Below are positions 561-57,780 of a stretch of DNA of 58,187 bases, piece after piece. The DNA comes from Candidatus Woesearchaeota archaeon. Lineage in GTDB: Archaea; Nanobdellota; Nanobdellia; SCGC-AAA011-G17; JACPNG01. The DNA is taken from positions 1-58,187 of the forward strand of contig CAYUGZ010000003.1 in the NCBI GenBank assembly GCA_964444465.1. Reading direction: 5' to 3'. The position numbers and the translations under genes were made by a program. The first letter of the stretch is position 1. Each line of letters starts with the position of its first letter. The notes under the pieces are model-generated. The model ran no database searches, was not told where the DNA came from, and saw only the letters and a program-made list of their open reading frames with translations.

Positions 561-2066
561 ATGTCTATAAAAGAATTAATAGAAACATTACATCCCTTAG
601 AAAGAAAAGTTATTCCTATATTAAAAGAGGATATAGAATTAAAAGAGATTATAGAAAAAACTAAATTAAAAGATGTAGAAGCAATGAGGGCATTACAATG
701 GCTTCAAAATAAAGATGCTTTAAAGATAAAACAAGAGTTAAAAGAAGTAGTAACTTTAGATAAGAATGGTGAAGAATACATAAAAATAGGATTACCAGAA
801 ACAAGATTCTTAAAATCACTAACAAAAGAATTAAACTTTAATGAAATAAAAGATAAAGCAAAGTTATCAAATGAAGAATTCAATATCTCTTTAGGGTTGT
901 TAAAAAGAACTGATTTAATATCCATAAAAAATTCTAATATAACAATATCAGATAAAGGAAAAAAATCTTTAAAAGAAAATAAAGAAGATTTCTTAAAAAA
1001 ACTCCCATTAGAAACTAAAGATTTAGGTAAATTCAAAAATATTTATAATGAATTAAGATCTAGAAAAGAAATAATAAAAACAGATGTTATTAAATTAAGA
1101 TTTGTAAAATTAACAAGTTTAGGACAAAAATTAACTAAAGAAAAAATAAATAATGATCTAATTGATACATTAACAACTAATATCCTTAAAACTGGTTCTT
1201 GGAAAAATAAAAAATTTAGAAGATATGATATCAAAATTAATGTCCCCCAAATTCATCCTGGAAAAAGACATTTTGTTAACCAAGCTATAGAATATGCGAA
1301 AAGGATATGGTTAGATCTAGGTTTTAAAGAAATGCAAGGATCCAAAACACAATTAGGATTTTGGAATTTCGATGCATTATTCACAGCTCAAGATCATCCA
1401 GTAAGAGATATTCAAGACACTTATTATATCAAAAATTTAGATGGAAAACTTCCTAGTAAAGAACTTGTTGAAAAAATAAAAAAAACTCATGAAGATGGTT
1501 GGAAAACTGGAAGTAGAGGATGGCAGTATAAATGGGATCAAGAAGAAGCTAAGAAAGTTATTTTGAGAACACACACTACTTGTTTAAGTGCACAAACAAT
1601 ATCTAAACTAAAAGAGTCAGATCTTCCAGTTAAATTTTTTTCAATAGGCAAAAGTTTTAGAAATGAAACAATGGATTTTAGCCATGGTTTTGAGCTTAAT
1701 CAATCTGAAGGAATAGTCATAGATCCTAATGCAAATTTTAAACATTTGTTAGGATATTTAAGAGAATTTGCAAATAAGATGGGTTATGAAAAGATAAGAT
1801 TTAGACCAGCTTATTTTCCATATACTGAACCAAGCGTAGAAGGAGATGTTTATGATCCTATAAGAAAAAAATGGATAGAAGTAATTGCAGCTGGAATCTT
1901 CCGTCCAGAAGTAGTCAAACCATTATTAGGAAAAAACATCCCAATATTGGCTTGGGGGAATGGTTTAGATAGGATGGCAATGGGAATGTATGGAATTAAA
2001 GATATAAGAGATTTGTATAAAAATGATTTAAAACAAATAAAAGAAATGAAATTGTGGTTAAAATAA
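561..2066 (+). CDS. pheS: phenylalanine--tRNA ligase alpha subunit (archaeal type)
   Basis: Class II aaRS core motifs (FRNETMDFSHGFELNQSEG, YFPYTEPS, GNGLDRMAM); directly followed by pheT. Confidence 0.9.
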   Translation: MSIKELIETLHPLERKVIPILKEDIELKEIIEKTKLKDVEAMRALQWLQNKDALKIKQELKEVVTLDKNGEEYIKIGLPETRFLKSLTKELNFNEIKDKAKLSNEEFNISLGLLKRTDLISIKNSNITISDKGKKSLKENKEDFLKKLPLETKDLGKFKNIYNELRSRKEIIKTDVIKLRFVKLTSLGQKLTKEKINNDLIDTLTTNILKTGSWKNKKFRRYDIKINVPQIHPGKRHFVNQAIEYAKRIWLDLGFKEMQGSKTQLGFWNFDALFTAQDHPVRDIQDTYYIKNLDGKLPSKELVEKIKKTHEDGWKTGSRGWQYKWDQEEAKKVILRTHTTCLSAQTISKLKESDLPVKFFSIGKSFRNETMDFSHGFELNQSEGIVIDPNANFKHLLGYLREFANKMGYEKIRFRPAYFPYTEPSVEGDVYDPIRKKWIEVIAAGIFRPEVVKPLLGKNIPILAWGNGLDRMAMGMYGIKDIRDLYKNDLKQIKEMKLWLK

Positions 2067-8900: not shown

Positions 8901-9114
8901 TGGTACGCCTGGACTGAACATTCGACATGTTGTGGAGCGCCGAGGGTTATTAATATCAATTCATCTTTCAGACTTTGCATCTTTAATAAACCACTGTATA
9001 TTAAATCAAATGTACTAATCTCCAACACTTTTAAGGATGATAGCCTTCATCGCCAAAATCTATAGGTGGAAATAAGTCTATAACATCTCTACGAATTTCT
9101 TCTCCATCTTCTCT

Positions 9115-9474
9115 TCATAATCCAAGATTTTCTAAAGAGCTACCTTTGTAAACTGGTTGCTCTAAATCTTTTCTAGCACTTATAAGAAGTTGGATACCCA
9201 ACTTTATACCCAACTTTTTATATATTCCTTCAGAAAGATGACCCTCTTCTTCAGGAACATAATCATCTTTCGCACCATCTTCCCATTGACCTTCACTCAA
9301 CATTAAAAAATCTCCAGAATCAGCTCCAGGAGTTTTTCTATAACACCTAATTTCTAAGCCACTATCCTTCTCTTTATTAGACACTCTAATTACAACTTGC
9401 TCTATTTGGTGCGATCCATCAGAATGTTTAGTAATGAACAAATCTCCAGGTTTAACATCTTGATATTCTGCCAT
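9115..9474 (-). CDS. hypothetical acidic protein (TGA stop followed by 27 more open, coding-like codons)
   Basis: 119-codon ORF behind leader cassette copy A; GGAG Shine-Dalgarno. Confidence 0.5.
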   Translation of the reverse strand: MAEYQDVKPGDLFITKHSDGSHQIEQVVIRVSNKEKDSGLEIRCYRKTPGADSGDFLMLSEGQWEDGAKDDYVPEEEGHLSEGIYKKLGIKLGIQLLISARKDLEQPVYKGSSLENLGL

Positions 9475-9549
9475 TTTATTTCTCCATTATCAACCCTTTT
9501 TAGAACTCTTTTTATTATAAATATTTACAATTTTTATTTATAAAACTTT
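9475..9549 (-). promoter_or_regulatory. shared promoter + 5' leader cassette, copy A
   Basis: TTTATAAA TATA box then TAATAAAAAGAGTTCTAAAAAGGGTTGAT...GGAGAAATAAAATG; near-identical copies at 38025-38100, 52127-52203 and 55779-55852. Confidence 0.55.
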
Positions 9550-9632
9550 CGCCGGGACTGGGATTCGAACCCAGACGCCCCGAAGGGCCAGGAGTTCCAG
9601 TCCTGTGCAATACCAGATTATGCGATCCCGGC
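9550..9632 (-). tRNA. tRNA-Ser (anticodon GGA)
   Basis: Cloverleaf read by hand: acceptor GCCGGGA/TCCCGGC, anticodon stem CAGGA/TCCTG with loop CTGGAAC, long variable arm GCCC-TTCG-GGGC, T arm CTGGG-TTCGAAT-CCCAG, discriminator G; no encoded CCA. Confidence 0.9.
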
Positions 9633-17604: not shown

Positions 17605-17832
17605 CTATTTTAGATTTCAATTTTCAATTTATAAAGCTTACTATTTTTTTAATAAGATTTTTAGTATATTAAATTTTCTTTATAAACGTATGTTTTTATC
17701 AAATTTAATTTAAGGATAGAAGCCCTAATTCCTTAATATTTTGGGGTTTTAGCCATAGAAAAGCTTTTAAATCAAACATGATTTTTATTAATGTTCTTAG
17801 CAAAAATTAACTAAGAAAACAAACTAATTTAG

Positions 17833-37083: not shown

Positions 37084-37722
37084 GTGAAAAAAGGTGTATT
37101 AAAATTATTAATAGTAATATCATTAATTTTTATAATAGGTTGTACACAAAGTATAGAAAATATAATTGTTTGTAATGCACCCTACACAAAATCTACTTTT
37201 GGTTGTTGTTTAGATAAAAATGATAATTCTATTTGTGATAAAAAAGAAGATCAAGAAGAATTAAAAAAATCTTTAGAAGAAGTTGTTGTTAATATTATTC
37301 AAAAACCTAGGAAAGATTTTATTGAAAGACAAAAAAACTTAGAAAAATTAAGATCTGCACATGAACTTTGTGATGAAAATTTAGATTATGAAATTATAGA
37401 AGCTTGTAAAGTTAATGGTAATAAATTTAGATTACTTATTGAAAATAAAGGAAGATTAAATATAACAAAGTTTAGAGGAGAATTTATTATGATAGACAAT
37501 TTTGTTATAAATAGATTATTATATTTTGATTCAGGAGCAGGGGAAGGAATAAGATATAGAGATAGAGAATCAGATACAATATTTTTAAGTGAAGAACCAA
37601 TAGCAATAAGAACCACCCCAATTATAATGGCAAATGAAACAACAATAACTTGTACAAAAAAATCTCAAAAGATAGGAAATATTTATTCACCACTTGAAAT
37701 CAAATTTTGTAAAAAAAATTAA
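37084..37722 (+). CDS. hypothetical lipoprotein
   Basis: GTG start; LLIVISLIFIIGC lipobox-like. Confidence 0.45.
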   Translation: MKKGVLKLLIVISLIFIIGCTQSIENIIVCNAPYTKSTFGCCLDKNDNSICDKKEDQEELKKSLEEVVVNIIQKPRKDFIERQKNLEKLRSAHELCDENLDYEIIEACKVNGNKFRLLIENKGRLNITKFRGEFIMIDNFVINRLLYFDSGAGEGIRYRDRESDTIFLSEEPIAIRTTPIIMANETTITCTKKSQKIGNIYSPLEIKFCKKN

Positions 37723-38024
37723 TAAAAAGATTTCCATCCCTTCTCATCTCTACTAGCAAAATAAATAGTAAGTCCTAAACTAATAACAGATGCAGTAGCT
37801 CCAGCTAAACCTAAACTAAAATCACTATTAGAAAAGTTTTGAGATAATCTATATGCCTCTTGATAAACTTTCTCTGTTAAATCTGGTGATTTTGATAGAT
37901 GTTCTTACATTATTACCTGTCTCATTGCAATATCACTTAAAAGTCTATATCCTGAACTAGCTCCAGTTAATGCAGAAATACTTCCAAAAGTACATATTTT
38001 AGCTAATCTCTTAATCTTTACCAT
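37719..38024 (-). pseudogene. 101-codon small ORF with in-frame TAA at codon 40
   Basis: ATG at 38024 behind cassette copy B; MVKIKRLAKICTFGSISALTGASSGYRLLSDIAMRQVIM-TAA(37907-37905)-EHLSKSPDLTEKVYQEAYRLSQNFSNSDFSLGLAGATASVISLGLTIYFASRDEKGWKSFY. Confidence 0.35.
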
Positions 38025-38100
38025 TTTAATTATCTAATCAACCCTATTTAGAACTCTTTTTTATTAGAATAAACAATAATTTTAGTTTATAAGCTTTACT
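38025..38100 (-). promoter_or_regulatory. shared promoter + 5' leader cassette, copy B
   Basis: AGTAAAGCTTATAAACTAAAATT...TAATAAAAAAGAGTTCTAAATAGGGTTGAT...ATG. Confidence 0.5.
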
Positions 38101-38522: not shown

Positions 38523-38650
38523 TCCCCACGGCCGGATTCGAACCAGCAACCTTCCGGGACCGGCTGACTTATTTTCATCCAAAGCCGAATGCTTAGTCAA
38601 TAAGTGAATTCATCTACAGCCGAACGCTCTACCAGTTGAGCTACGTGGGG
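38523..38650 (-). tRNA. tRNA-Tyr (anticodon GTA) with a 55-nt intron in the anticodon loop
   Basis: Acceptor CCCCACG/CGTGGGG (C1-G72, archaeal Tyr identity pair), D arm GCTC-AACTGGTA-GAGC, anticodon stem TTCGG/CCGGA, loop CTGTAG|intron|C, T arm GCTGG-TTCGAAT-CCGGC, discriminator A; intron about 38559-38613. Confidence 0.85.
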
Positions 38651-44791: not shown

Positions 44792-44926
44792 TAAAAAAGA
44801 AGATCATTCTCTGTTTTCTATATGTCACTACTAATGGATAGGTAAAATAGTAAAGTTTATAAATAGCTAAATTAGAATTAATATATCAATAAAATGATTA
44901 TATTTTAAGATTTATGGAGGAATAAA

Positions 44927-45199
44927 ATGGAAGAATATTGTTGTATTGAAGGATGTGAAAAAGGTAAAGAATACCAGATTAAATGGGAAAAAGGAGGAGA
45001 AACAATACAAGAAAGAGGTGCATGTAATCAACTAGCTCATGTTGCTCAAGCTGGTTTTGATGAAGAACGTGGAAAACCTAGTTCTATAACACAAATGGTA
45101 ACTAATGAAGAAGACTCTCATTTATTAAAAATAGTTACAGGGACTTTACCCTATCAAGAATTAGTAAAAACAGGAGAGTTTAAAGTAAGAAAAGAGTAA
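44927..45199 (+). CDS. hypothetical protein
   Basis: GGAGGAATAAAATG start context; BRE/TATA-like AGTAAAGTTTATAAA at 44849-44863. Confidence 0.45.
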   Translation: MEEYCCIEGCEKGKEYQIKWEKGGETIQERGACNQLAHVAQAGFDEERGKPSSITQMVTNEEDSHLLKIVTGTLPYQELVKTGEFKVRKE

Positions 45200-51218: not shown

Positions 51219-51857
51219 ATGGAAGATACAATAAAAAATTTAAAAGAAATATTAAAAGAAAATCTAATTACTGTAGCTGAATATGGTAAGAAAGATAAAA
51301 CTCATTTAATAATTCTAGAAAGTTTAGATACTAATGTTCTAAATGAAATTAAACAAGAAATAAAAAACTATCATAAAAAAACAAAGAAATATCCCTTATT
51401 ATTAACAAAAGAAGAGTTAACTGATGGTTTGGATGTTTTTCCATTAGAATTTCTAAATATTAAATTAAATCATAAAATTTTATATGGTGGAGGAATCTTA
51501 AAAAATTTAGAATTTGAGAAGAAATTTGTAAGAAGAGAACTAGAATTTGAGTTTAGATCAAAATTAATAAATTTAAGACAAGGTTATTTAGAAGTTGAAA
51601 ATAAAAAACAATTTAAGATTATTCTGGAAAAAGCCATTCCAACATTAATTCCAATATTAAACGGATTGTTATTCTTAAAAGATATTGATATTCCTAATGA
51701 TCTAGATGAAATATTTAATTTAGTATCAAAAGAATATAAAACAGATTTGAGTATACTAAAAAACCTAGAAACTTTAACTAATGCTGAAGAGTCAATTAAA
51801 GATTTAATAACTCTACTTACAGAATTAGGTGAAACATTAGATGAGATGAAAGTATAA
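51219..51857 (+). CDS. hypothetical protein
   Basis: 212-codon ORF with AAGGAG Shine-Dalgarno. Confidence 0.45.
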   Translation: MEDTIKNLKEILKENLITVAEYGKKDKTHLIILESLDTNVLNEIKQEIKNYHKKTKKYPLLLTKEELTDGLDVFPLEFLNIKLNHKILYGGGILKNLEFEKKFVRRELEFEFRSKLINLRQGYLEVENKKQFKIILEKAIPTLIPILNGLLFLKDIDIPNDLDEIFNLVSKEYKTDLSILKNLETLTNAEESIKDLITLLTELGETLDEMKV

Positions 51858-51862
51858 TTTTC

Positions 51863-52126
51863 TCATATACTCTTATAATATTGTACAGAATAGAATAATG
51901 AATTTTTTCCTTTATAAGTAAGCAATTTGACTAAATAAAATTCCACATCTTCTGGTCTATTCTCTTCTATAATCGATAATAGTCTAGAGCTATCTTCTTC
52001 TAAACCTTGCATTTCTATGACTTTGCCAAACATCTCTAATTTATTAAGGAGAATAGGAGGCTTATTTAATTTTTTTAATTTTATTTTTTTAGTCTCTGTT
52101 GGTTTTGAAATTGTAGTTATATCCAT
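51863..52126 (-). CDS. hypothetical small protein
   Basis: Track ORF begins at TTG 52144; ATG 52126 (MDITTISKP) sits at the conserved position behind cassette copy C. Confidence 0.45.
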   Translation of the reverse strand: MDITTISKPTETKKIKLKKLNKPPILLNKLEMFGKVIEMQGLEEDSSRLLSIIEENRPEDVEFYLVKLLTYKGKNSLFYSVQYYKSI

Positions 52127-52203
52127 TTTATTCCTCAATATCAATCCTTTTTAGAACTCTTTTTTATTAATTTTAATTGTAATTTCAGTTTATAAATCTT
52201 ACT
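52127..52203 (-). promoter_or_regulatory. shared promoter + 5' leader cassette, copy C
   Basis: AGTAAGATTTATAAACTGAAATT...TAATAAAAAAGAGTTCTAAAAAGGATTGAT...GAGGAATAAAATG. Confidence 0.55.
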
Positions 52204-52255
52204 CTAACTAGAAACATATAGTTATATTTAAAAACTAACAAATAAAGAAAATAAG

Positions 52256-52849
52256 ATGAGAAGAATGAAGAAAAACACTAAGATTATAATTGGTGTAGTA
52301 GCAGTTGTATTAATTTTAATTTTTTGGTATGTTGGGATTTATAATAGTTTGATAACATTAGATGAAACAGTTAATGAAAAATGGGCTCAAGTAGAGAACC
52401 AATATCAAAGAAGAGCAGATTTGATTCCTAATTTAATAAACACAGTTACAGGAGCAAGAGACTTTGAAGCAAATACTCAAGCAGATATAGCAAAATTAAG
52501 AACACAAGCTACTCAAATTAAACAAGATGTAGCTAAAGGTTTGAATCCTTCTCAATTAAACCAAATGGATACTAGAATGGGTTCTGTTTTAAGTGGATTA
52601 AATATAGTTGTAGAAGCATATCCTGATTTGAAAGCAACTGAAAACTTCTTAGCTTTGCAATCTCAATTAGAAGGAACAGAAAATAGAATCTCAACAGAAA
52701 GAATGAGATATAATGAAGCTGTAAAATTGTTTAATATTAAAATAAAAAGAATTCCAAGTAAATGGGTAGCTTCTCAGCTAGGATATACAGATAAAGAATT
52801 CTATGAGATTGAAGAAGGTGTAGAAGAAGTCCCATTAGTTGAGTTTTAA
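52256..52849 (+). CDS. lemA: LemA family membrane protein
   Basis: N-terminal TM helix, then NEKWAQVENQYQRRADLIPNL and LQSQLEGTENRISTERMRYNEAV. Confidence 0.85.
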   Translation: MRRMKKNTKIIIGVVAVVLILIFWYVGIYNSLITLDETVNEKWAQVENQYQRRADLIPNLINTVTGARDFEANTQADIAKLRTQATQIKQDVAKGLNPSQLNQMDTRMGSVLSGLNIVVEAYPDLKATENFLALQSQLEGTENRISTERMRYNEAVKLFNIKIKRIPSKWVASQLGYTDKEFYEIEEGVEEVPLVEF

Positions 52850-52879
52850 TTATTTTTCTATAGTAAGATTATTAAATTT

Positions 52880-54124
52880 TTGTTTTTAGATATTCTTATG
52901 CAAGAAAAAGTAACAAAGGCAGTAATAACAGCAAGTTATAATGATGATGGTAAAGAAGGCCCTATTAGAGATAAAGTAATGGGACAAGTGGAAAAAGAAA
53001 GAGAAAAAGGCTATAAATTTCTTAATCATCTTATTTTAAGAGACACTAAACATCATAGAGTTACTAAATTTAATTTTTTATTAGATAAAACTCCAATAAT
53101 CTCTCATGTTTTATACAATACTTCTAGAACATCTTTAGAAGAAATAACAGTTGTAGGAGATGAAATAACAAGAGCTAATGTAGAAGCTTTCTCAGATTAT
53201 TTTGATGATTCAAGATTTAAATATGTTAATGAAGGCCCTCCAAAAGAATGGAAACTTTCAGAAACATTAAGAAAAGGGGATTCAGGAGGACAGATAGTAT
53301 TAACTTTAATGGGAGATTTGCCTTTAGCATGGAACTTAAAACATATTCTACATGACCCAGACATTCCTAATTATGATGCAATTTTTGATCTTAATACTAA
53401 AAGAAAAGTTGGAAAACATTTTCCAAGATACTACCATTTTAAGATAAGGCATAAAGGGGTTAATTGGTTAGCAAAAGAACCTAATCTTTATTTAATGGAT
53501 ATAGGAAAAATAAAACATGTATCTAATTTGATGTATAGTGGTAGAAAAACACATATGGGTGGAGGAAGGAGTGAACTATTTCAAAAATTGTTTATGGAAA
53601 ATAATAAGTGGAAGATTACATTAGAAGGATTGGGTAAAATATATGCAGCTCAAACAGCTTTTAACTGGATAGCAGGAAGAAAATTACTTTTAAAACCTGA
53701 AAAACTTCAAAAAGTAATAGAGGATTTAGAAGGTATAAAAACAAAATTTAAAGCAGACAATGATCAACCCGGAACACTAGAAGATATTGATTCTTTAGAA
53801 GACTGGGCTTATCTTTATGATATGTTATCAAGAGCAAAAGATAGATATTATCCTCATTTTTCAAAGTTAAGAAAATTTTCAGAAGATATTATGCCTGAAC
53901 TTAAAAGAAATCATGAATTTTATTATGGTTTTGAAGATTATATAAATTTATTATTCAAGGATTATAATCTTCCAGAACCTTTTGTTAGTAAAGGGGTGTT
54001 TGAAAATCCATTTACATCAAATAAAGTAGACCCTTCCACTAGAAGTAGAGTAAAAAGAATGATGTGGTTTAATATTTTAACCCATAGAAGATATAATAGA
54101 AAACATTCATCAAATATTTTATGA
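52880..54124 (+). CDS. hypothetical protein, possibly MobA-like/GT-A-fold nucleotidyltransferase
   Basis: Weak pattern only: AVITAS..., LTLMGDLPL, EDIDSLEDW; TTG start in the track, ATG at 52898 possible. Confidence 0.4.
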   Translation: MFLDILMQEKVTKAVITASYNDDGKEGPIRDKVMGQVEKEREKGYKFLNHLILRDTKHHRVTKFNFLLDKTPIISHVLYNTSRTSLEEITVVGDEITRANVEAFSDYFDDSRFKYVNEGPPKEWKLSETLRKGDSGGQIVLTLMGDLPLAWNLKHILHDPDIPNYDAIFDLNTKRKVGKHFPRYYHFKIRHKGVNWLAKEPNLYLMDIGKIKHVSNLMYSGRKTHMGGGRSELFQKLFMENNKWKITLEGLGKIYAAQTAFNWIAGRKLLLKPEKLQKVIEDLEGIKTKFKADNDQPGTLEDIDSLEDWAYLYDMLSRAKDRYYPHFSKLRKFSEDIMPELKRNHEFYYGFEDYINLLFKDYNLPEPFVSKGVFENPFTSNKVDPSTRSRVKRMMWFNILTHRRYNRKHSSNIL

Positions 54125-54176
54125 GGTAAATATTTATAGTAAGAATATTAATTGATATTTTAAGGAAAATTAGGAA

Positions 54177-54470
54177 ATTAATTATCATCAAAGATGTGAA
54201 GTTAAAGAATGTAATGAACCAGCCAAATATGATATTGTATGGTATGGTTATAGAGAAAATGAAGAAGGTATAGAATATGAAATACATGAAATAGAAGTTT
54301 CATTAGATGTATGTGGGGATAAAGAACATATGGTTAAAGTGAGTCTAATGAATAAGAGTTGGGGGAATCCTGATGATATTCTTGATGGAAGTGAAGAACA
54401 AAAATCCTTATTAGAAGAGACTATACTAAAATTAACAGAATTAAGCAATGGAGAAGAAAATGGTATATGA
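54177..54470 (+). CDS. hypothetical protein without a canonical start codon
   Basis: Frame open 54174-54470 and coding-like (YHQRCEVKECNEPAKYDIVWYGYRENEEGIEYEIHEIEVSLDVCGDKEH...); no early ATG/GTG/TTG; ATT 54177 follows an AAGGAAAA purine tract. Confidence 0.25.
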   Translation: MNYHQRCEVKECNEPAKYDIVWYGYRENEEGIEYEIHEIEVSLDVCGDKEHMVKVSLMNKSWGNPDDILDGSEEQKSLLEETILKLTELSNGEENGI

Positions 54471-54735
54471 TGGAAAATCAGTGTCTGAAATAAAACCTAA
54501 AAAAACAGATATTTTAATAGGAATTTACAGACACTTTAAAGGCGGTAGATATGAAGTCTTTGATACAGCAAGACATACTGAAACAGATGAAGAATTTGTT
54601 GTTTATAGAAACCTTGATGATTATACTTGTTGGGTTAGACCTAAAGAAAATTTTCTTGAACATGTTGTAGTAGGAAATGAAAAAGTTCCTCGCTTTGAAT
54701 ATATTGAACAAGGAGAAGAAAATAATGTTTTCTGA
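54448..54735 (+). CDS. DUF1653-like protein
   Basis: GIYRHFKGGRYEV...HTETDEEFVVYRNL...WVRPKENF pattern. Confidence 0.6.
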   Translation: MEKKMVYDGKSVSEIKPKKTDILIGIYRHFKGGRYEVFDTARHTETDEEFVVYRNLDDYTCWVRPKENFLEHVVVGNEKVPRFEYIEQGEENNVF

Positions 54736-54800
54736 GTATTTAAATATAACTAGAAAAGTCAATCAAATCTTCTAATTCAATTAACAATTCTTCCTTAAAA

Positions 54801-55442
54801 TTAACCATTACTAAACTCACATTGATTCTTTTTATGTAAAACACAAGCTTTACATTTATATGAAGAGATATTATGTTCGGGATTAACCTCTTTTTTAAAT
54901 AATAACAACATTCTATTGATTATACTAAAAACTTCATTAAGATTTTCTTCATTAAATTCTTCCTTCCACACCTCTAAATTAGAATCTCTATCTCTTAAAA
55001 TTGCTAAAACTTTTTTATTAGAATGTTCAGGATAATTTTTCTTTACAAATTCTTTTATTAAGATACAATAAGCCCATATCTGTCTTTTGTAGCCTAGATA
55101 GGGTTTTGCTCTTGGTTTATCATCAATAACATATAAATTATTTTCATCAACACCTAATTCATCTATCTTTCCTTTTAAAATAAAATCATCAAATTCTTCT
55201 TTTAGATATATTTCTTTAGTTATTGTATAAACTTGAGATTTTAGAAAATCTTCAGGTGTAGTTGGAACAGCAACTTCTTTAAATTTATCTTCTTTTTCTT
55301 GATGAATCTCTTTTCCAACAATCATTGATTGTGTTATTGGAACTTTTTCTTTTAGTACATTTTCTAGATACCATTTCCACTCACAATATTCATGAGATCC
55401 AAGCCAGGAAGCATTAATTGGTATTTTTTCAGACATTTCCAT
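54801..55442 (-). CDS. Cas4-like PD-(D/E)XK nuclease with Cys cluster
   Basis: N-terminal Cys (SHEYCEWKWY), GKIDEL...YVIDDKP...YKRQIWAYC nuclease core, C-terminal CKACVLHKKNQC. Confidence 0.6.
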   Translation of the reverse strand: MEMSEKIPINASWLGSHEYCEWKWYLENVLKEKVPITQSMIVGKEIHQEKEDKFKEVAVPTTPEDFLKSQVYTITKEIYLKEEFDDFILKGKIDELGVDENNLYVIDDKPRAKPYLGYKRQIWAYCILIKEFVKKNYPEHSNKKVLAILRDRDSNLEVWKEEFNEENLNEVFSIINRMLLLFKKEVNPEHNISSYKCKACVLHKKNQCEFSNG

Positions 55443-55466
55443 TATTATCTAATGTTTTTTAATTAT

Positions 55467-55778
55467 TTAATCTAAATTTAATTCAGAAACCATTTCTTCT
55501 AATCTCTCTCTTGAATAAGAGCCATGAACTGGTTTTCTTTGATAAGCTTTGTCTCCATGACGCTCAGAATTAACAAGAAGACCTTTCCTATTATATCTAA
55601 ATTTCCCTAACAACCTAAATATTTCCAGTTGTCTTTTTATTAATTCATCTTTTATTGCAATTTTTGGACCTTTTTTAACATAAATTTTAGTTCCATTTAG
55701 CTCAATTGGCCCAAGTCTATAAACCCCTGTATTTGATTCAGAAGTATAATTATAATTGTTATTATTATCTGTTCCCAT
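55467..55778 (-). CDS. hypothetical small basic protein
   Basis: 103-codon ORF behind cassette copy D; its stop is 24 nt before the nuclease start. Confidence 0.45.
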   Translation of the reverse strand: MGTDNNNNYNYTSESNTGVYRLGPIELNGTKIYVKKGPKIAIKDELIKRQLEIFRLLGKFRYNRKGLLVNSERHGDKAYQRKPVHGSYSRERLEEMVSELNLD

Positions 55779-55852
55779 TTTATTCCTATCAACTCTCTTT
55801 AGAACTCTTTTTTATTAATATTACTTAGAATTTCAGTTTATAAACCTTACTT
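55779..55852 (-). promoter_or_regulatory. shared promoter + 5' leader cassette, copy D
   Basis: AGTAAGGTTTATAAACTGAAATT...TAATAAAAAAGAGTTCTAAAGAGAGTTGATAGGAATAAAATG. Confidence 0.55.
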
Positions 55853-55879
55853 TATCTTATCTCTTAAAACCATTCTCAG

Positions 55880-57718
55880 TTATTTTGAAAAATTAAAAAT
55901 TCTTAAATCTGGACTTAACAGATTAATATGGTCCTCTTCAGATCTTAACCCTCTATAAATCCTTTGCATAAATTCTCTTTTAGCTTTATCTCCAAATAAA
56001 GTCCAAAAATGTCTTGAATTACTTTTTTTAAGAACTCTCCAAAATAAAGAACTTATGTTAGGATTAGGATATTTAGTAAATATTATACTATTACAAATAT
56101 CTCCAGGAAAATCTACCCCTCGATTACATTTAGTTGAGTACAAAACATCAATATCTTTATTCTTAAACTGTTGAACTAATTCTCCTTTCTTAAATTTATC
56201 TTGTTCATCTTGTAATTCTTTTCTTGTTTTTAGATTAGGAATATTATATTTGTAACATTCTTCTTCAGTTGGCAAGTCTAAAAAAGCATTAACATGAATT
56301 AATATCGGCTTTTCAGCTATTTCAACAGATTTAGACAATGCTTTCATATATTCCTCTCTTGAACCTTCTTGTTTTAAATATCTATAATCAAATATCTTTT
56401 CCAATCCCGTTCTAACATTAGTTATTCCACCCCTATGAGTCACCTCAGCTTCAACAGTTTTAAACTCTTTAACCCCAAATATCTCTTTTAAAACAGAATC
56501 AGAATGAACAGTCCCACTCATCATCACAAATACTTTATTTTTATCTAAAAATTCTTTTAATTTTTTATCTAGATTAACAGTTATTAAATTAGCAATTAAA
56601 TTATTATAATCATCTTTGTAAAATGTTAGATAAGTTTCATCAAAAAAATCTTCAAACATCTTTCCAGTTTGATAAACATTAAGAATATAATTTGAGGTTT
56701 CATCTTCTGTTAAATCAATTAATTTAGGATTGTCTATAATCCATTTTAACAAATCTAAGATTTTTGTATTTTTAACTAATAATATCTCTTTAGTTTTTAT
56801 AGAATTTAAAATATTATTATCTCTTGATATTTCAGCTACTAAATCATTAATTTCTATTGTTAATTCTTTCAAATCTAAGTTATCAGTTTGAATATTAGTT
56901 AAGTTTCTTGATAACCTATCTAAATTTATTTTTTTTTCATTAGACAAATTATCTAAAAATTCATCGCACTCATCTATAATCTCAACCTCAGTTGAAGGTT
57001 TTCTATCCATAACATTTTCTAGCTCATATTTTTTACTATTAAAAATAATTACGTCAGAATTAATATAACTTATAAACTGCCCATAATAACCACAACCTTC
57101 TTTTCTTTTGTAATAAGTAAAAGTTTTATCATTCAAACCTTTGTAAGTTAATTCTTCAGAGCCTTCTATATCATATTTTCCTCCAAACCAATCCTTACAA
57201 ATAATTGGAGACCAATAAGGACAGGCAGGAGCTATTGATTTTCTTCTTACATCCTCTACATCTTCAAAATCTTTTAGTTTAACTGAAGGATTTTGGTTAA
57301 TATAACCTCTAATCAAATCCATATTTTCTTTCTTAATCTCAATATCACAAGGTAAAAATTTATTGTCTGCATTACAATCCCCTTCAAATATACAATTATG
57401 ATTACCTCTTCCATCAATAATGGAAATATTCAGTTTTTCTTTGTTATTTTTTAGGATATGAAGTTTATCAGTATAATCTTCTTCATATTGTTTTTGTAAA
57501 GGTTTAACAGGGACAACAATAGATGTTTTACCTAATTCTTTGGCTAAATTTAATGCAATTGCACTTTTTCCAGTCCCACAAATCCCCTTAATAAAAATTA
57601 TCTTATTTCCTTGTTTAATTGCTTCAATAGTTTCTCGTACAACATCTAATTGAGATTTGTTATTAGAAAATACAAAAGGCTCTAGAAATTTTTCTTTGTT
57701 ATACAAACTCCACATCAT
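55880..57718 (-). CDS. XPD/Rad3/DinG-like superfamily 2 helicase with Cys-rich insert
   Basis: Walker A GICGTGKS, motif II IIDECDEF, Cys-rich insert between motifs I and II (NHNC, GDC, LPC, PACPYW), C-terminal NRGVDFPGD and QRIYRGLRSEED. Confidence 0.7.
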   Translation of the reverse strand: MMWSLYNKEKFLEPFVFSNNKSQLDVVRETIEAIKQGNKIIFIKGICGTGKSAIALNLAKELGKTSIVVPVKPLQKQYEEDYTDKLHILKNNKEKLNISIIDGRGNHNCIFEGDCNADNKFLPCDIEIKKENMDLIRGYINQNPSVKLKDFEDVEDVRRKSIAPACPYWSPIICKDWFGGKYDIEGSEELTYKGLNDKTFTYYKRKEGCGYYGQFISYINSDVIIFNSKKYELENVMDRKPSTEVEIIDECDEFLDNLSNEKKINLDRLSRNLTNIQTDNLDLKELTIEINDLVAEISRDNNILNSIKTKEILLVKNTKILDLLKWIIDNPKLIDLTEDETSNYILNVYQTGKMFEDFFDETYLTFYKDDYNNLIANLITVNLDKKLKEFLDKNKVFVMMSGTVHSDSVLKEIFGVKEFKTVEAEVTHRGGITNVRTGLEKIFDYRYLKQEGSREEYMKALSKSVEIAEKPILIHVNAFLDLPTEEECYKYNIPNLKTRKELQDEQDKFKKGELVQQFKNKDIDVLYSTKCNRGVDFPGDICNSIIFTKYPNPNISSLFWRVLKKSNSRHFWTLFGDKAKREFMQRIYRGLRSEEDHINLLSPDLRIFNFSK

Positions 57719-57780
57719 TTTAGATTTCTAAGAAATCAACCCTTATTAAATATTCTCTAAATAATAGATTTGTTTAAATT

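What the first reader, a model, noticed from the sequence alone, without database searches (positions are those of the whole stretch)
9475..9549. Near-identical ~75-bp promoter + leader cassette in four copies, in front of four unrelated small ORFs
In gene orientation, ending at the ATG, the four copies read as follows. A (9549-9472): GAAAGTTTTATAAATAAAAATTGTAAATATTTATAATAAAAAGAGTTCTAAAAAGGGTTGATAATGGAGAAATAAAATG. B (38100-38022): AGTAAAGCTTATAAACTAAAATTATTGTTTATTCTAATAAAAAAGAGTTCTAAATAGGGTTGATTAGATAATTAAAATG. C (52203-52124): AGTAAGATTTATAAACTGAAATTACAATTAAAATTAATAAAAAAGAGTTCTAAAAAGGATTGATATTGAGGAATAAAATG. D (55852-55776): AGTAAGGTTTATAAACTGAAATTCTAAGTAATATTAATAAAAAAGAGTTCTAAAGAGAGTTGATAGGAATAAAATG. 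The distal AGTAAG-N-TTTATAAA block looks like the generic BRE/TATA of this genome, since it also occurs at 17628-17642 and 44849-44863. The block TAATAAAAA(A)GAGTTCTAAA-N-AG-N-(G/A)TTGAT is invariant and occurs only at these four sites. It should fall at or just after the transcription start, that is, in a ~45-nt 5' UTR. All four copies are on the minus strand. The four encoded proteins (119, 101 interrupted, 87 and 103 aa) show no similarity to one another. A degenerate fifth version (…TTTAGAGAATATTTAATAAGGGTTGAT…ATG) precedes the helicase gene at 57719-57765. This suggests a dedicated regulon, with a shared operator or RNA element, or a duplicating promoter module.
Basis: seen in the sequence. 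Interest (0 to 1): 0.6.

Follow-up and report, generated by a model that had tools for sequence, protein, structure and literature searches.

The report
Portable promoter-leader module heading orphan genes
A tiny marine Woesearchaeota-type archaeon puts the same ~80-base promoter plus leader, whose one specific part is a 23-base tandem-repeat block at the predicted transcription start, in front of small orphan genes that are gained, lost or swapped between close relatives.

Summary
Four ~80-nt copies lie on the minus strand (52-57 bits each; the next best site scores 11.9). Two weaker copies lie on other contigs of the same 655-kb genome.

The cassette has three parts. The BRE/TATA box and the SD plus AAUAAAAUG start are generic in this genome. 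Between them is a sharply bounded 23-25-nt block, AAAAAGAGTTCT-AAAAAGrGTTGA, which is the only cassette-specific part.

About half of the promoter-proximal genes here are leaderless, with the ATG 21 nt after the TATA box. By that calibration the block falls at about +4 to +26 of a 37-41-nt unstructured leader.

The block occurs at 2-6 promoters per genome in four related genomes and one metagenome contig. It was not found in more distant Woesearchaeota or in viral contigs.

The genes behind it are almost all genome-specific orphans. Against the closest relative, all six modules of this genome are absent, replaced or cargo-swapped. Three indels have direct repeats at their junctions, one of them a decayed copy of a tRNA-Ser 3' end.

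Best reading: a portable expression module of the flexible gene pool, whose block is a shared site at the transcription start, most likely an operator. No expression data could be obtained. The proposed fifth copy is not supported.

The parts
9472..9549 (-). Cassette A. TATA box at 9537-9544, predicted TSS near 9515, conserved block at 9489-9513, SD-like GGAG, ATG at 9474-9472. It starts directly after the last base of tRNA-Ser.
9115..9474 (-). ORF A, 119 aa and acidic. It is an orphan: the only match among 5.8 billion proteins is itself. No Pfam or PHROG match.
9550..9632 (-). tRNA-Ser(GGA). Module A abuts its 3' end.
8917..9549 (-). Module A, a 633-bp segment (cassette, ORF A and about 200 nt) that is absent from the closest relative G004. 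In G004 the tRNA end joins directly to TACCATTAAATTTG.
8906..8946 (-). Decayed direct-repeat copy of the 3' ~40 nt of tRNA-Ser, at the far end of module A. Its last 11 nt, CAGTCCAGGCG, compare with CAGTCCCGGCG in the tRNA. This looks like the scar of an integration.
38022..38100 (-). Cassette B. BRE/TATA at 38086-38100, predicted TSS near 38064, block at 38037-38061, ATG at 38024.
37720..38024 (-). ORF B, 101 codons with an in-frame TAA after codon 39. The product looks like a small membrane protein. It is either a pseudogene or is read through.
38523..38650 (-). tRNA-Tyr(GTA) with a 55-nt intron. The variable 0.8-kb segment 37712-38510, which holds a 95-aa ORF, cassette B and ORF B, follows its 3' end. 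G004 has about 6 kb of other genes at this place.
52124..52203 (-). Cassette C. BRE/TATA at 52189-52203, predicted TSS near 52167, block at 52140-52164, SD GAGG, ATG at 52126.
51863..52126 (-). ORF C, 87 aa, an orphan.
51851..52212 (-). Module C, about 362 bp, made of the cassette and ORF C only. It is absent from G004, where the two flanks are contiguous. Imperfect ~12-nt direct repeats lie at 51846-51857 and 52210-52221.
55776..55852 (-). Cassette D. BRE/TATA at 55837-55851, predicted TSS near 55815, block at 55788-55812, SD AGGA, ATG at 55778.
55467..55778 (-). ORF D, 103 aa and basic. A PD-(D/E)XK nuclease gene (54801-55442) follows after 24 nt. One 35%-identical homologue exists in G005, and it has no cassette.
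55469..55879 (-). Module D, 411 bp between the helicase and nuclease genes. In G004 this slot holds 893 bp of unrelated sequence with two other ORFs.

Best explanation
Each copy is the 5' control region of a self-contained, portable small-gene module.

Anatomy:
- A standard archaeal BRE/TATA promoter.
- A predicted transcription start 21-22 nt after the TATA box.
- An unstructured, A-rich leader of about 37-41 nt.
- A generic SD and AAUAAAAUG start.

The only cassette-specific part is a sharply bounded block of 23-25 nt. It is made of two tandem 12-nt units, AAAAAGAGTTCT and AAAAAGrGTTGA, and lies at about +4 to +26.

Shown here:
- The block sits at a fixed distance from the TATA box.
- It is conserved across at least two genera, while the spacer beside it and the genes behind it are not.
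- It heads genome-specific orphan genes in hypervariable slots, including the 3' ends of tRNA genes.

Inferred:
- The block is a shared cis-regulatory site overlapping the transcription start.
- It is most likely the operator of one dedicated DNA-binding repressor of the tandem-repeat-binding type. Such a repressor would block RNA polymerase recruitment or promoter escape.
- This would put the flexible small-gene modules and the X-trmB-like operon under common control.
- The leader exists because, in a mostly leaderless genome, an operator at the start site needs non-coding room.
- Modules spread by insertion or duplication and are lost or exchanged quickly.
For: The repeat is real and rare:
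- 52-57 bits for the four copies against 11.9 for the next site.
- Six copies in the genome.
- It is the only multi-member family of similar upstream regions in front of non-homologous genes, among about 700 genes.

Generic versus specific parts:
- BRE/TATA is generic.
- AATAAAATG starts 33 of 702 genes.
- The promoter at 44849-44929 has the same BRE/TATA and SD/start but no block.

Position of the block:
- Of 266 genes with a TATA-like box, 128 have 19-24 nt between the box and the ATG, with a mode of 21 nt. These genes are leaderless.
- In 18 cassettes the distance from TATA to TTCTAA is 32.1 +/- 1.4 nt. The distance from the block to the start codon is 22.6 +/- 3.2 nt.
- The information profile shows 23 consecutive conserved positions, about 32 bits in all, against about 0.25 bit per position in the spacer.

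No conserved RNA structure is predicted and no Rfam family matches.

Conservation:
- Copies occur in G003 (5), G004 (2), G005 (4) and on JGI contig L057 (2).
- At the orthologous trpS-X-trmB locus the block is kept in two genera, although protein X is only 26-37% identical between genomes.

Portability, by comparison with G004 (flanks 87-94% identical):
- Module A is a 633-bp indel at the tRNA-Ser end, with a decayed repeat of the tRNA 3' end.
- Module C is a 362-bp indel.
- Module D is replaced by other genes.
- The B region, next to tRNA-Tyr, is replaced.
- The C1 module of 379 nt is absent, with a 9-nt repeat ATGACAGAA at its junctions.
- At C12 the cassette is kept but identity drops to 28-45% across X only.

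Cargo:
- ORFs A, C and D match only themselves among 5.8 billion proteins.
- No cassette-driven protein of G003, G004 or G005 other than X has a homologue in G000.

Precedent: SSV1 F55 binds tandem repeats that overlap the TSS or BRE of several promoters (PMC5569661).
Against: - There is no transcript, TSS or binding data.
- No candidate regulator was found. The one transcription factor always linked to a cassette, the TrmB-like protein, more probably binds a separate TACT-N7-AGTG motif upstream of its own BRE. That motif is conserved far beyond the clade that has the block.
- The second half of the block pairs weakly with the 16S 3' end, about -6 kcal/mol. In copies B and D it lies at SD distance from the AUG, so part of its conservation could act at the RNA level.
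- The repeat period of 12 bp is not an exact helical turn.
- The direction of each change (insertion or deletion) is inferred only from junction repeats.
- No cassette was found on viral contigs or on an evident plasmid or provirus.
Confidence: 0.5

Rival explanations
1. The block acts in the mRNA and not in the DNA. It forms the first ~25 nt of an unstructured A-rich leader. It would serve as a ribosome standby site or upstream SD-like site, or as the binding site of an RNA-binding protein that sets translation or stability of these leadered mRNAs in a mostly leaderless organism.
For: - The block is always on the sense strand inside the predicted 5' UTR.
- The second half, GrGUUGAU, pairs with the 16S tail GGAUCACCUCCU at about -6 kcal/mol. 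In copies B, D, G005_C8 and G003_C1a it lies 8-10 nt from the AUG, where an SD would be.
- The trmB leaders of distant relatives carry AAAAAG(G)GGGT, an SD-like run from which the block could derive.
- The leader is unstructured, as expected for a ribosome loading site.
Against: - Spacing to the TATA box is tighter (SD 1.4 nt) than spacing to the start codon (SD 3.2 nt, range 12-27).
- The best conserved part, GTTCTAAA, has no complementarity to the anti-SD.
- If SD function alone mattered, GGTGAT would be expected, not the fixed GTTGAT.
- No copy lies between genes of an operon without a promoter.
Confidence: 0.25
2. The block has no function of its own. The similarity only reflects recent common descent of a family of small modules, or gene conversion among their promoters. 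What the first reader saw would then be repeated DNA, not a regulatory signal.
For: - Copies C and D are 91% identical over 54 nt and lie 3.6 kb apart.
- The modules are clearly gained and lost between close relatives.
Against: - Conservation is sharply bounded. The block holds about 32 bits over 23 nt, while the 20-nt spacer between TATA and block is nearly random within the same copies.
- The block is kept between genera at the orthologous trpS-X-trmB locus, where the coding sequence behind it has diverged to 26-37% protein identity or to random-level DNA identity.
Confidence: 0.1
3. The tandem repeats are recombination sites, for example arm-type binding sites of an integrase, belonging to elements that integrate at tRNA 3' ends. 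Their position near promoters would then be incidental.
For: - Cassettes directly follow tRNA-Ser genes in G000 (A), G004 (C15) and G003 (C1a).
- A 6.5-kb island in G003 is flanked by a 55-nt direct repeat made of the tRNA 3' end, 19 nt and the BRE/TATA.
- Module A ends in a decayed copy of the tRNA 3' end.
Against: - Most copies are not next to a tRNA (C, D, C1, C12 and relatives).
- Every copy keeps a fixed register with a TATA box and a start codon.
- No integrase lies near any copy. The genome has one Xer-like recombinase, on another contig.
- The direct repeats of the G003 island end at the TATA box and do not include the block.
Confidence: 0.05
4. It is simply the generic promoter and leader of this genome.
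For: The BRE/TATA and the SD/start context are generic.
Against: - The block precedes 6 of about 700 genes.
- Most promoter-proximal genes are leaderless.
- Leadered EF-1alpha and leaderless S10 lack the block.
Confidence: 0.02

Closest known systems
Putative mobile promoters (PMPs): 'promoter propagation / promoter reuse in prokaryotes' (Matus-Garcia, Nijveen & van Passel 2012; PMC3575422)
   Same: Highly similar upstream regions stand in front of non-homologous genes within one genome, and are shared between related genera. Copies C and D are 91% identical over 54 nt.
   Different: - PMPs are a descriptive class found mainly in bacteria, in the region -150 to -50.
- This case is in an archaeon, and the similarity spans TATA to ATG.
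- The conserved core is a 23-nt block at the predicted TSS.
- The whole promoter-leader-ORF unit is the indel, not the promoter alone.
- Only the C/D pair meets the PMP length and identity cut-off.
Operators of TSS-overlapping archaeal repressors, especially the SSV1 F55 tandem-repeat sites at the T5, T6, Tind and Tlys promoters (PMC5569661)
   Same: A tandem direct repeat of about 11-12 nt overlaps the start site of several separate promoters. Many of these promoters belong to a mobile or flexible gene set.
   Different: - No binding protein is known here.
- The sequence is unrelated (AAAAAGAGTTCT against ATAGATAGAGT).
- The sites are dispersed in a cellular chromosome among housekeeping genes, not clustered on a virus.
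- Overlap with the TSS is predicted, not mapped.
Phage 'morons': independent promoter-ORF units inserted between conserved genes. This comparison rests on my own knowledge of the lambdoid phage literature and was not checked in the paper library.
   Same: Self-contained small transcription units are present or absent between otherwise collinear close relatives. The cargo is unrelated and of unknown function.
   Different: - The host is an archaeal chromosome.
- All units share one promoter-leader, whereas morons do not share a common control region.
- No terminator was defined.
Integron gene cassettes, including the integrons reported in archaeal MAGs. This comparison rests on my own knowledge and was not checked here.
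   Same: Small, mostly orphan single-gene units carry a conserved non-coding element and turn over quickly.
   Different: - The conserved element here is 5' of the ORF and is a promoter-leader, not a 3' attC hairpin. No inverted repeat or structure is present.
- The units are dispersed, not in an array.
- No IntI-type integrase lies beside them.

Membership tests
Archaeal BRE/TATA promoter | Purine-rich BRE followed by an 8-bp TATA box matching the consensus of the genome | tested here: met
   AGTAAR-N-YTTATAAA occurs in B, C and D, with a variant in A. The same motif heads leaderless genes. There are 5 matches in the window against 0.04 expected.
Archaeal BRE/TATA promoter | Transcription starts about 22-25 nt downstream of the TATA box | not testable with these tools
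The TSS is inferred from the 21-nt TATA-to-ATG mode of leaderless genes.
Putative mobile promoter (PMP) | At least 80% identity over at least 50 nt between upstream regions of one genome | tested here: met
   C against D is 90.7% over 54 nt. Other pairs share only 21-27-nt blocks. The region is -80 to -1, not the -150 to -50 used in the definition (PMC3575422).
Putative mobile promoter (PMP) | Downstream coding sequences are not paralogous | tested here: met
   All-against-all BLASTP gives no hit among A, B, C, D, C1 and C12.
Operator of a TSS-overlapping repressor (F55-like) | Repeated recognition units at a fixed position relative to the core promoter, at several promoters | tested here: met
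   Two 12-nt tandem units are present. The TATA-to-block distance is 32.1 +/- 1.4 nt in 18 copies.
Operator of a TSS-overlapping repressor (F55-like) | A cognate DNA-binding protein that binds the site and represses transcription | not testable with these tools
   No candidate was identified. ORFs C and D gave no DNA-binding fold. The TrmB-like factor probably uses another motif.
Structured cis-regulatory RNA (riboswitch, K-turn leader or other Rfam family) | Conserved secondary structure with covariation, or a match to a curated family | tested here: not met
   RNAalifold predicts 0 pairs on 8 copies. No Rfam hit at E<=1 over 51800-56000.
Integron gene cassette | attC imperfect inverted repeat 3' of the ORF, cassettes in an array next to intI | tested here: not met
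   The conserved element is 5' of the ORF and unstructured. The copies are dispersed over 3 contigs. The genome has only one Xer-like recombinase, elsewhere.
MITE or IS-type transposable element | Terminal inverted repeats and/or a transposase | tested here: not met
   No terminal inverted repeat of 8 nt or more beyond AT-rich chance at the ends of modules A, C, D and C1. The modules encode a single orphan ORF each.
tRNA-targeting integrative element | Direct repeat of the tRNA 3' end flanking the insert | tested here: met
   For module A only: a 41-nt decayed copy at 8906-8946 against the tRNA 3' part at 9550-9587. The G003 island has a 55-nt direct repeat.
tRNA-targeting integrative element | Element-encoded integrase | tested here: not met
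   None is present in module A (633 bp) or in the 6.5-kb G003 island.

The most novel reading that the evidence does not exclude
These may be a so far undescribed kind of miniature mobile gene cassette in DPANN archaea. Each unit is a self-contained promoter-leader-ORF. Units insert at tRNA 3' ends or between genes, leaving 9-12-nt duplications. Their conserved 5' module would serve both as a common expression and regulation signal and as a homology handle for exchanging the orphan cargo. The trpS-X-trmB locus is an example: identity falls from about 90% to random level exactly across X. This would be a promoter-carrying counterpart of integron cassettes or phage morons, feeding the flexible genome of an ultra-small symbiont.
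Probability: 0.2. Interest if true: 0.8.

Novelty: new variant of a known kind. Interest (0 to 1): 0.5.

Why it matters
- Gene regulation and genome flux in DPANN archaea are almost unknown, because these organisms are not cultivated.
- A cis-element that marks the rapidly exchanged orphan genes of a 0.65-Mb genome gives a concrete handle on two questions: how such reduced symbionts acquire and control new genes, and which genes belong to their flexible, possibly host-interaction or conflict-related, repertoire.
- It is also a clean example of promoter and leader reuse in Archaea.
- It raises a possible link between leadered transcripts and regulation in a mostly leaderless transcriptome.
- The 23-nt block is a ready probe for pull-down of its binding factor and for mining metagenomes for further modules.

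Tried and rejected
- RNA structure: RNAalifold predicts no pairs. Rfam finds nothing on the cassettes.
- Generic leader: rejected by the genome-wide nhmmer, cmsearch and upstream-region BLAST scans.
- Fifth copy before the helicase gene: not found even at E<=10.
- Wider distribution:
  - At order level (240 genomes) the pattern hits equal the reversed control, 7 against 6.
  - 47 more distant trmB loci have no cassette.
  - The JGI metagenome scan gave only the same organism and one relative.
  - IMG/VR gave no cassette.
- Function of the cargo:
  - No Pfam or PHROG match.
  - No homologues in 5.8 billion proteins.
  - AlphaFold models of D (pLDDT 67) and C (pLDDT 61) have no PDB fold match.
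- Selection from population data: contigs from at least 8 samples are nearly clonal and have no SNP in module C, so this was uninformative.
- TrmB-like factor as the block binder: made less likely by a separate, widely conserved TACT-N7-AGTG / TTACTAC motif upstream of its BRE.
- X as the regulator: unlikely, since it diverges to 11-29% identity while the block stays fixed.
- MITE or IS: no terminal inverted repeats.
- Integron: not met.
- The 6-kb segment of G004 next to tRNA-Tyr carries housekeeping-type genes, including class I LysRS and dCTP deaminases. It is therefore a rearrangement and not clearly a mobile element.

Full report
**Context.** The window is the whole contig C3 of a 655-kb, 27% G+C, 82%-complete archaeal genome. 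Titles of related records place it among the Woesearchaeota / Nanoarchaeia (DPANN). Identical proteins occur in Tara, JGI and Logan marine assemblies. The contig is ordinary chromosome. It carries PheRS, EF-1alpha, EF-2, S10, gyrase, IF2, eIF2-gamma, GrpE/DnaK, Rad50/Mre11, Sua5 and a DEAD helicase.

**1.
- The four sequences read as quoted, all on the minus strand, and end at ATGs 9474, 38024, 52126 and 55778.
- A sequence-only model built from eight copies scores them at 52-57 bits. With filters off, the next best site in the window scores 11.9 bits.
- The 24-nt core with up to 2 mismatches occurs 4 times in the genome and 0 times for the reversed control.
- nhmmer and cmsearch find two more divergent copies on other contigs, C12:1528-1604(-) and C1:329-407(+).
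- The proposed fifth copy upstream of the helicase gene is not recovered at any threshold.
- The four ORFs are unrelated to one another.
- ORF B has an in-frame TAA that recurs in an independent JGI contig.

**2. What is generic and what is specific.**
- The BRE/TATA motif AGTAAR-N-YTTATAAA is the general promoter of the genome.
- The 3' end is generic too. AATAAAATG starts 33 of 702 crudely called genes, and SD-like G-runs sit at -8 to -11.
- The promoter at 44849-44929 has the same BRE/TATA and GGAGGAATAAAATGG but different sequence in between.
- Anchoring 18 copies on TTCTAA shows a sharply bounded run of 23 conserved positions, AAAAAGAG-TTCTAAAAAG-GTTG. It holds about 32 bits. The roughly 20-nt spacer towards the TATA box holds about 0.25 bit per position.
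- The block is two tandem 12-nt units, AAAAAGAGTTCT and AAAAAGrGTTGA.

**3. Position.**
- This genome is largely leaderless. Of 266 genes with a TATA-like box within 100 nt, 128 have 19-24 nt between the box and the ATG, with a sharp mode at 21.
- The cassette genes have 56-65 nt there (50 in one copy, G004_C4). The block should lie at about +4 to +26. A conserved T-A step lies at the predicted start.
- The block is tied more tightly to the TATA box (32.1 +/- 1.4 nt) than to the start codon (22.6 +/- 3.2 nt, range 12-27).
- No consensus RNA structure is predicted, and no Rfam family matches.
- The second half of the block pairs weakly, about -6 kcal/mol, with the canonical 16S tail GGAUCACCUCCU. 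In copies B and D it lies at SD distance from the AUG.
- Leadered EF-1alpha and leaderless S10 lack the block.
- In an all-against-all comparison of about 700 upstream regions, this is the only multi-member family in front of non-homologous genes.

**4. Distribution.**
- The model finds 5 copies in G003, 2 in G004 and 4 in G005. G003 and G004 are in the same genus, and G005 is in another genus of the same family.
- Two copies lie on JGI contig Ga0209542_10002880.
- At order level (240 genomes) exact-pattern hits are at control level, 7 against 6.
- 47 more distant Woesearchaeota loci carrying the trmB-like gene have no cassette.
- IMG/VR has none.

**5. One orthologous copy shows purifying selection.**
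- In G000, G003, G004 and G005 a cassette sits between trpS and an operon. The operon consists of a small protein X (127-148 aa) and a highly conserved TrmB-family regulator (267 aa, 82-95% identical).
- X is only 26-37% identical between genomes, yet the block is kept.
- More distant relatives have trpS-trmB without X. Some of their trmB leaders carry AAAAAG(G)GGGT or GAGAGGTTCT, possible precursors of the block.
- A different motif, TACT-N7-AGTG / TTACTAC, lies upstream of the BRE. It is conserved far more widely and is the more likely TrmB autoregulatory site.

**6. The modules are portable.** G004 has flanks 87-94% identical in DNA. Against it, all six G000 copies differ exactly at the module.
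- **A.** A 633-bp segment (cassette, ORF A and about 200 nt) is missing in G004. There the tRNA-Ser end joins directly to TACCATTAAATTTG. In G000 that flank is preceded by a decayed 41-nt copy of the tRNA 3' end at 8906-8946.
- **C.** About 362 bp, consisting of the cassette and ORF C only, is missing in G004. Imperfect 12-nt repeats lie at the junctions.
- **D.** 411 bp between the helicase and nuclease genes is replaced in G004 by 893 bp with two other ORFs.
- **B.** The 0.8 kb after an intron-containing tRNA-Tyr (38523-38650) is replaced in G004 by about 6 kb of other genes. That segment ends in a 22-nt repeat of the tRNA end.
- **C1.** 379 nt (block leader and ORF) is absent in G004. There the next ORF is leaderless behind a promoter at the same place. 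A 9-nt repeat, ATGACAGAA, brackets the extra DNA.
- **C12.** The cassette is retained, but DNA identity drops from 85-98% to 28-45% exactly across X, and returns to 95% in trmB.
- **Reciprocal case.** G004 and G003 have cassettes after tRNA-Ser(CGA), where G000 has none.
- **G003 island.** A 6.5-kb island at that tRNA is flanked by a 55-nt repeat made of the tRNA end, 19 nt and the BRE/TATA. It has cassettes at both ends and one inside.

**7. Cargo.**
- ORFs A, C and D match only themselves among 5.8 billion proteins.
- D has one 35%-identical homologue in G005, without a cassette.
- No cassette-driven protein of the relatives, other than X, has a homologue in G000.
- There are no Pfam or PHROG hits and no fold matches.
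- The ORFs are longer than chance allows in this composition. The probability of no stop in 87-119 codons is 4e-4 to 2e-5.
- The modules have no terminal inverted repeats and no integrase nearby. The genome has one Xer-like recombinase, on contig C4.

**8. Interpretation.**
- *Shown:* a clade-restricted, promoter-anchored 23-nt element under constraint, heading self-contained small-gene units of the flexible genome.
- *Inferred:* it is a shared regulatory site at the transcription start.
  - I favour a DNA operator for a tandem-repeat-binding repressor (confidence 0.5).
  - The reasons are the tight register with the TATA box, the sharp two-unit footprint-like profile and the lack of RNA structure.
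  - SSV1 F55 is the closest mechanistic precedent (PMC5569661).
  - An RNA-level role, as a standby or secondary SD site or as a protein-binding leader, remains a serious rival (0.25).
  - Functionless shared ancestry (0.1) fits poorly with the bounded conservation across genera.
- As a phenomenon it falls under 'putative mobile promoters' (PMC3575422) and resembles phage morons. The differences are that it is archaeal, the conserved core lies at the TSS, and the promoter travels with, or serves as a boundary for, orphan cargo.

**Limits.**
- Gene calls for the genome-wide statistics are crude.
- The polarity of the indels rests on junction repeats only.
- All relatives are incomplete MAGs.

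This scan had not noted the cassette on other DNA.

Noticed in passing
window 38523-38650 (-): tRNA-Tyr(GTA) with a 55-nt intron. Default ARAGORN misses it. ARAGORN with introns allowed and Rfam RF00005 (54 bits) both find it. Its 3' end borders a variable region that differs between G000 and G004.
   Followed up: partly
window 37720-38024 (-); G000:C16:6764-6875 and C10:22001-22098: The in-frame TAA in ORF B is identical in an independent JGI contig (Ga0066859_10015577), so it is not an assembly error. The anticodon assignments depend on guessed intron positions and are unverified.
   Followed up: partly
G000:C12 about 1610-1640 (-), and loci L059-L106 upstream of the trmB-like genes: A TACT-N7-AGTG / (G)TTACTAC motif just upstream of the BRE of the TrmB-family regulator gene is conserved across many Woesearchaeota. 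It is a likely autoregulatory operator and resembles the TACT...AGTA-type sites described for TrmB proteins (from my own knowledge).
   Followed up: partly
G000:C12:1-3200 against G004:C4 (L034): A hypervariable small gene X is wedged between a conserved promoter-leader and a very conserved HTH regulator gene, with overlapping stop and start codons. Identity is about 90% in the flanks and 28-45% in X. The layout recalls operons in which a variable small gene precedes a conserved repressor gene, for example acr-aca in phages.
   Followed up: partly
window 44849-44929 (+): A promoter with the same BRE/TATA, the same ~63-nt spacing and the same GGAGGAATAAAATGG start as the cassettes, but without the block. 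It precedes a 90-aa Cys-rich ORF (44927-45199).
   Followed up: no
G000:C11:23561-23660, C6:43276-43375, C4:41062-41161: Three genes (two leaderless, the C4 gene with a short SD leader) share AGTTACAAATAGAAAGATTTATAAA, a GTTAC-type motif fused to the BRE/TATA. This may be another small regulon.
   Followed up: no
G000:C5:43320-49651: An exact tandem duplication of about 3.4 kb covers three genes, with 100% identical upstream regions. It is either a real recent duplication or an assembly artefact at the contig end.
   Followed up: no
G003:C1:9686-16212 (L051 2686-9212): A 6.5-kb island sits after an intron-containing tRNA-Ser(CGA) and is flanked by a 55-nt direct repeat. It encodes an AAA_5 (MoxR/McrB-like) ATPase, a dNK-like kinase and four proteins without Pfam matches. 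No integrase is present.
   Followed up: partly
G004:C14:6505-12526 (L122): A 6-kb segment lies between tRNA-Tyr and a 22-nt repeat of its 3' end. It carries class I LysRS, an AlaX-like protein, an LD-carboxypeptidase, a methyltransferase and two dCTP deaminase-like genes. Housekeeping-type genes thus sit in an att-like bracket.
   Followed up: partly
whole genome G000: About half of the promoter-proximal genes are leaderless, with exactly 21 nt (mode) between the TATA box and the ATG. This is a useful calibration for gene-start prediction in this clade.
   Followed up: yes
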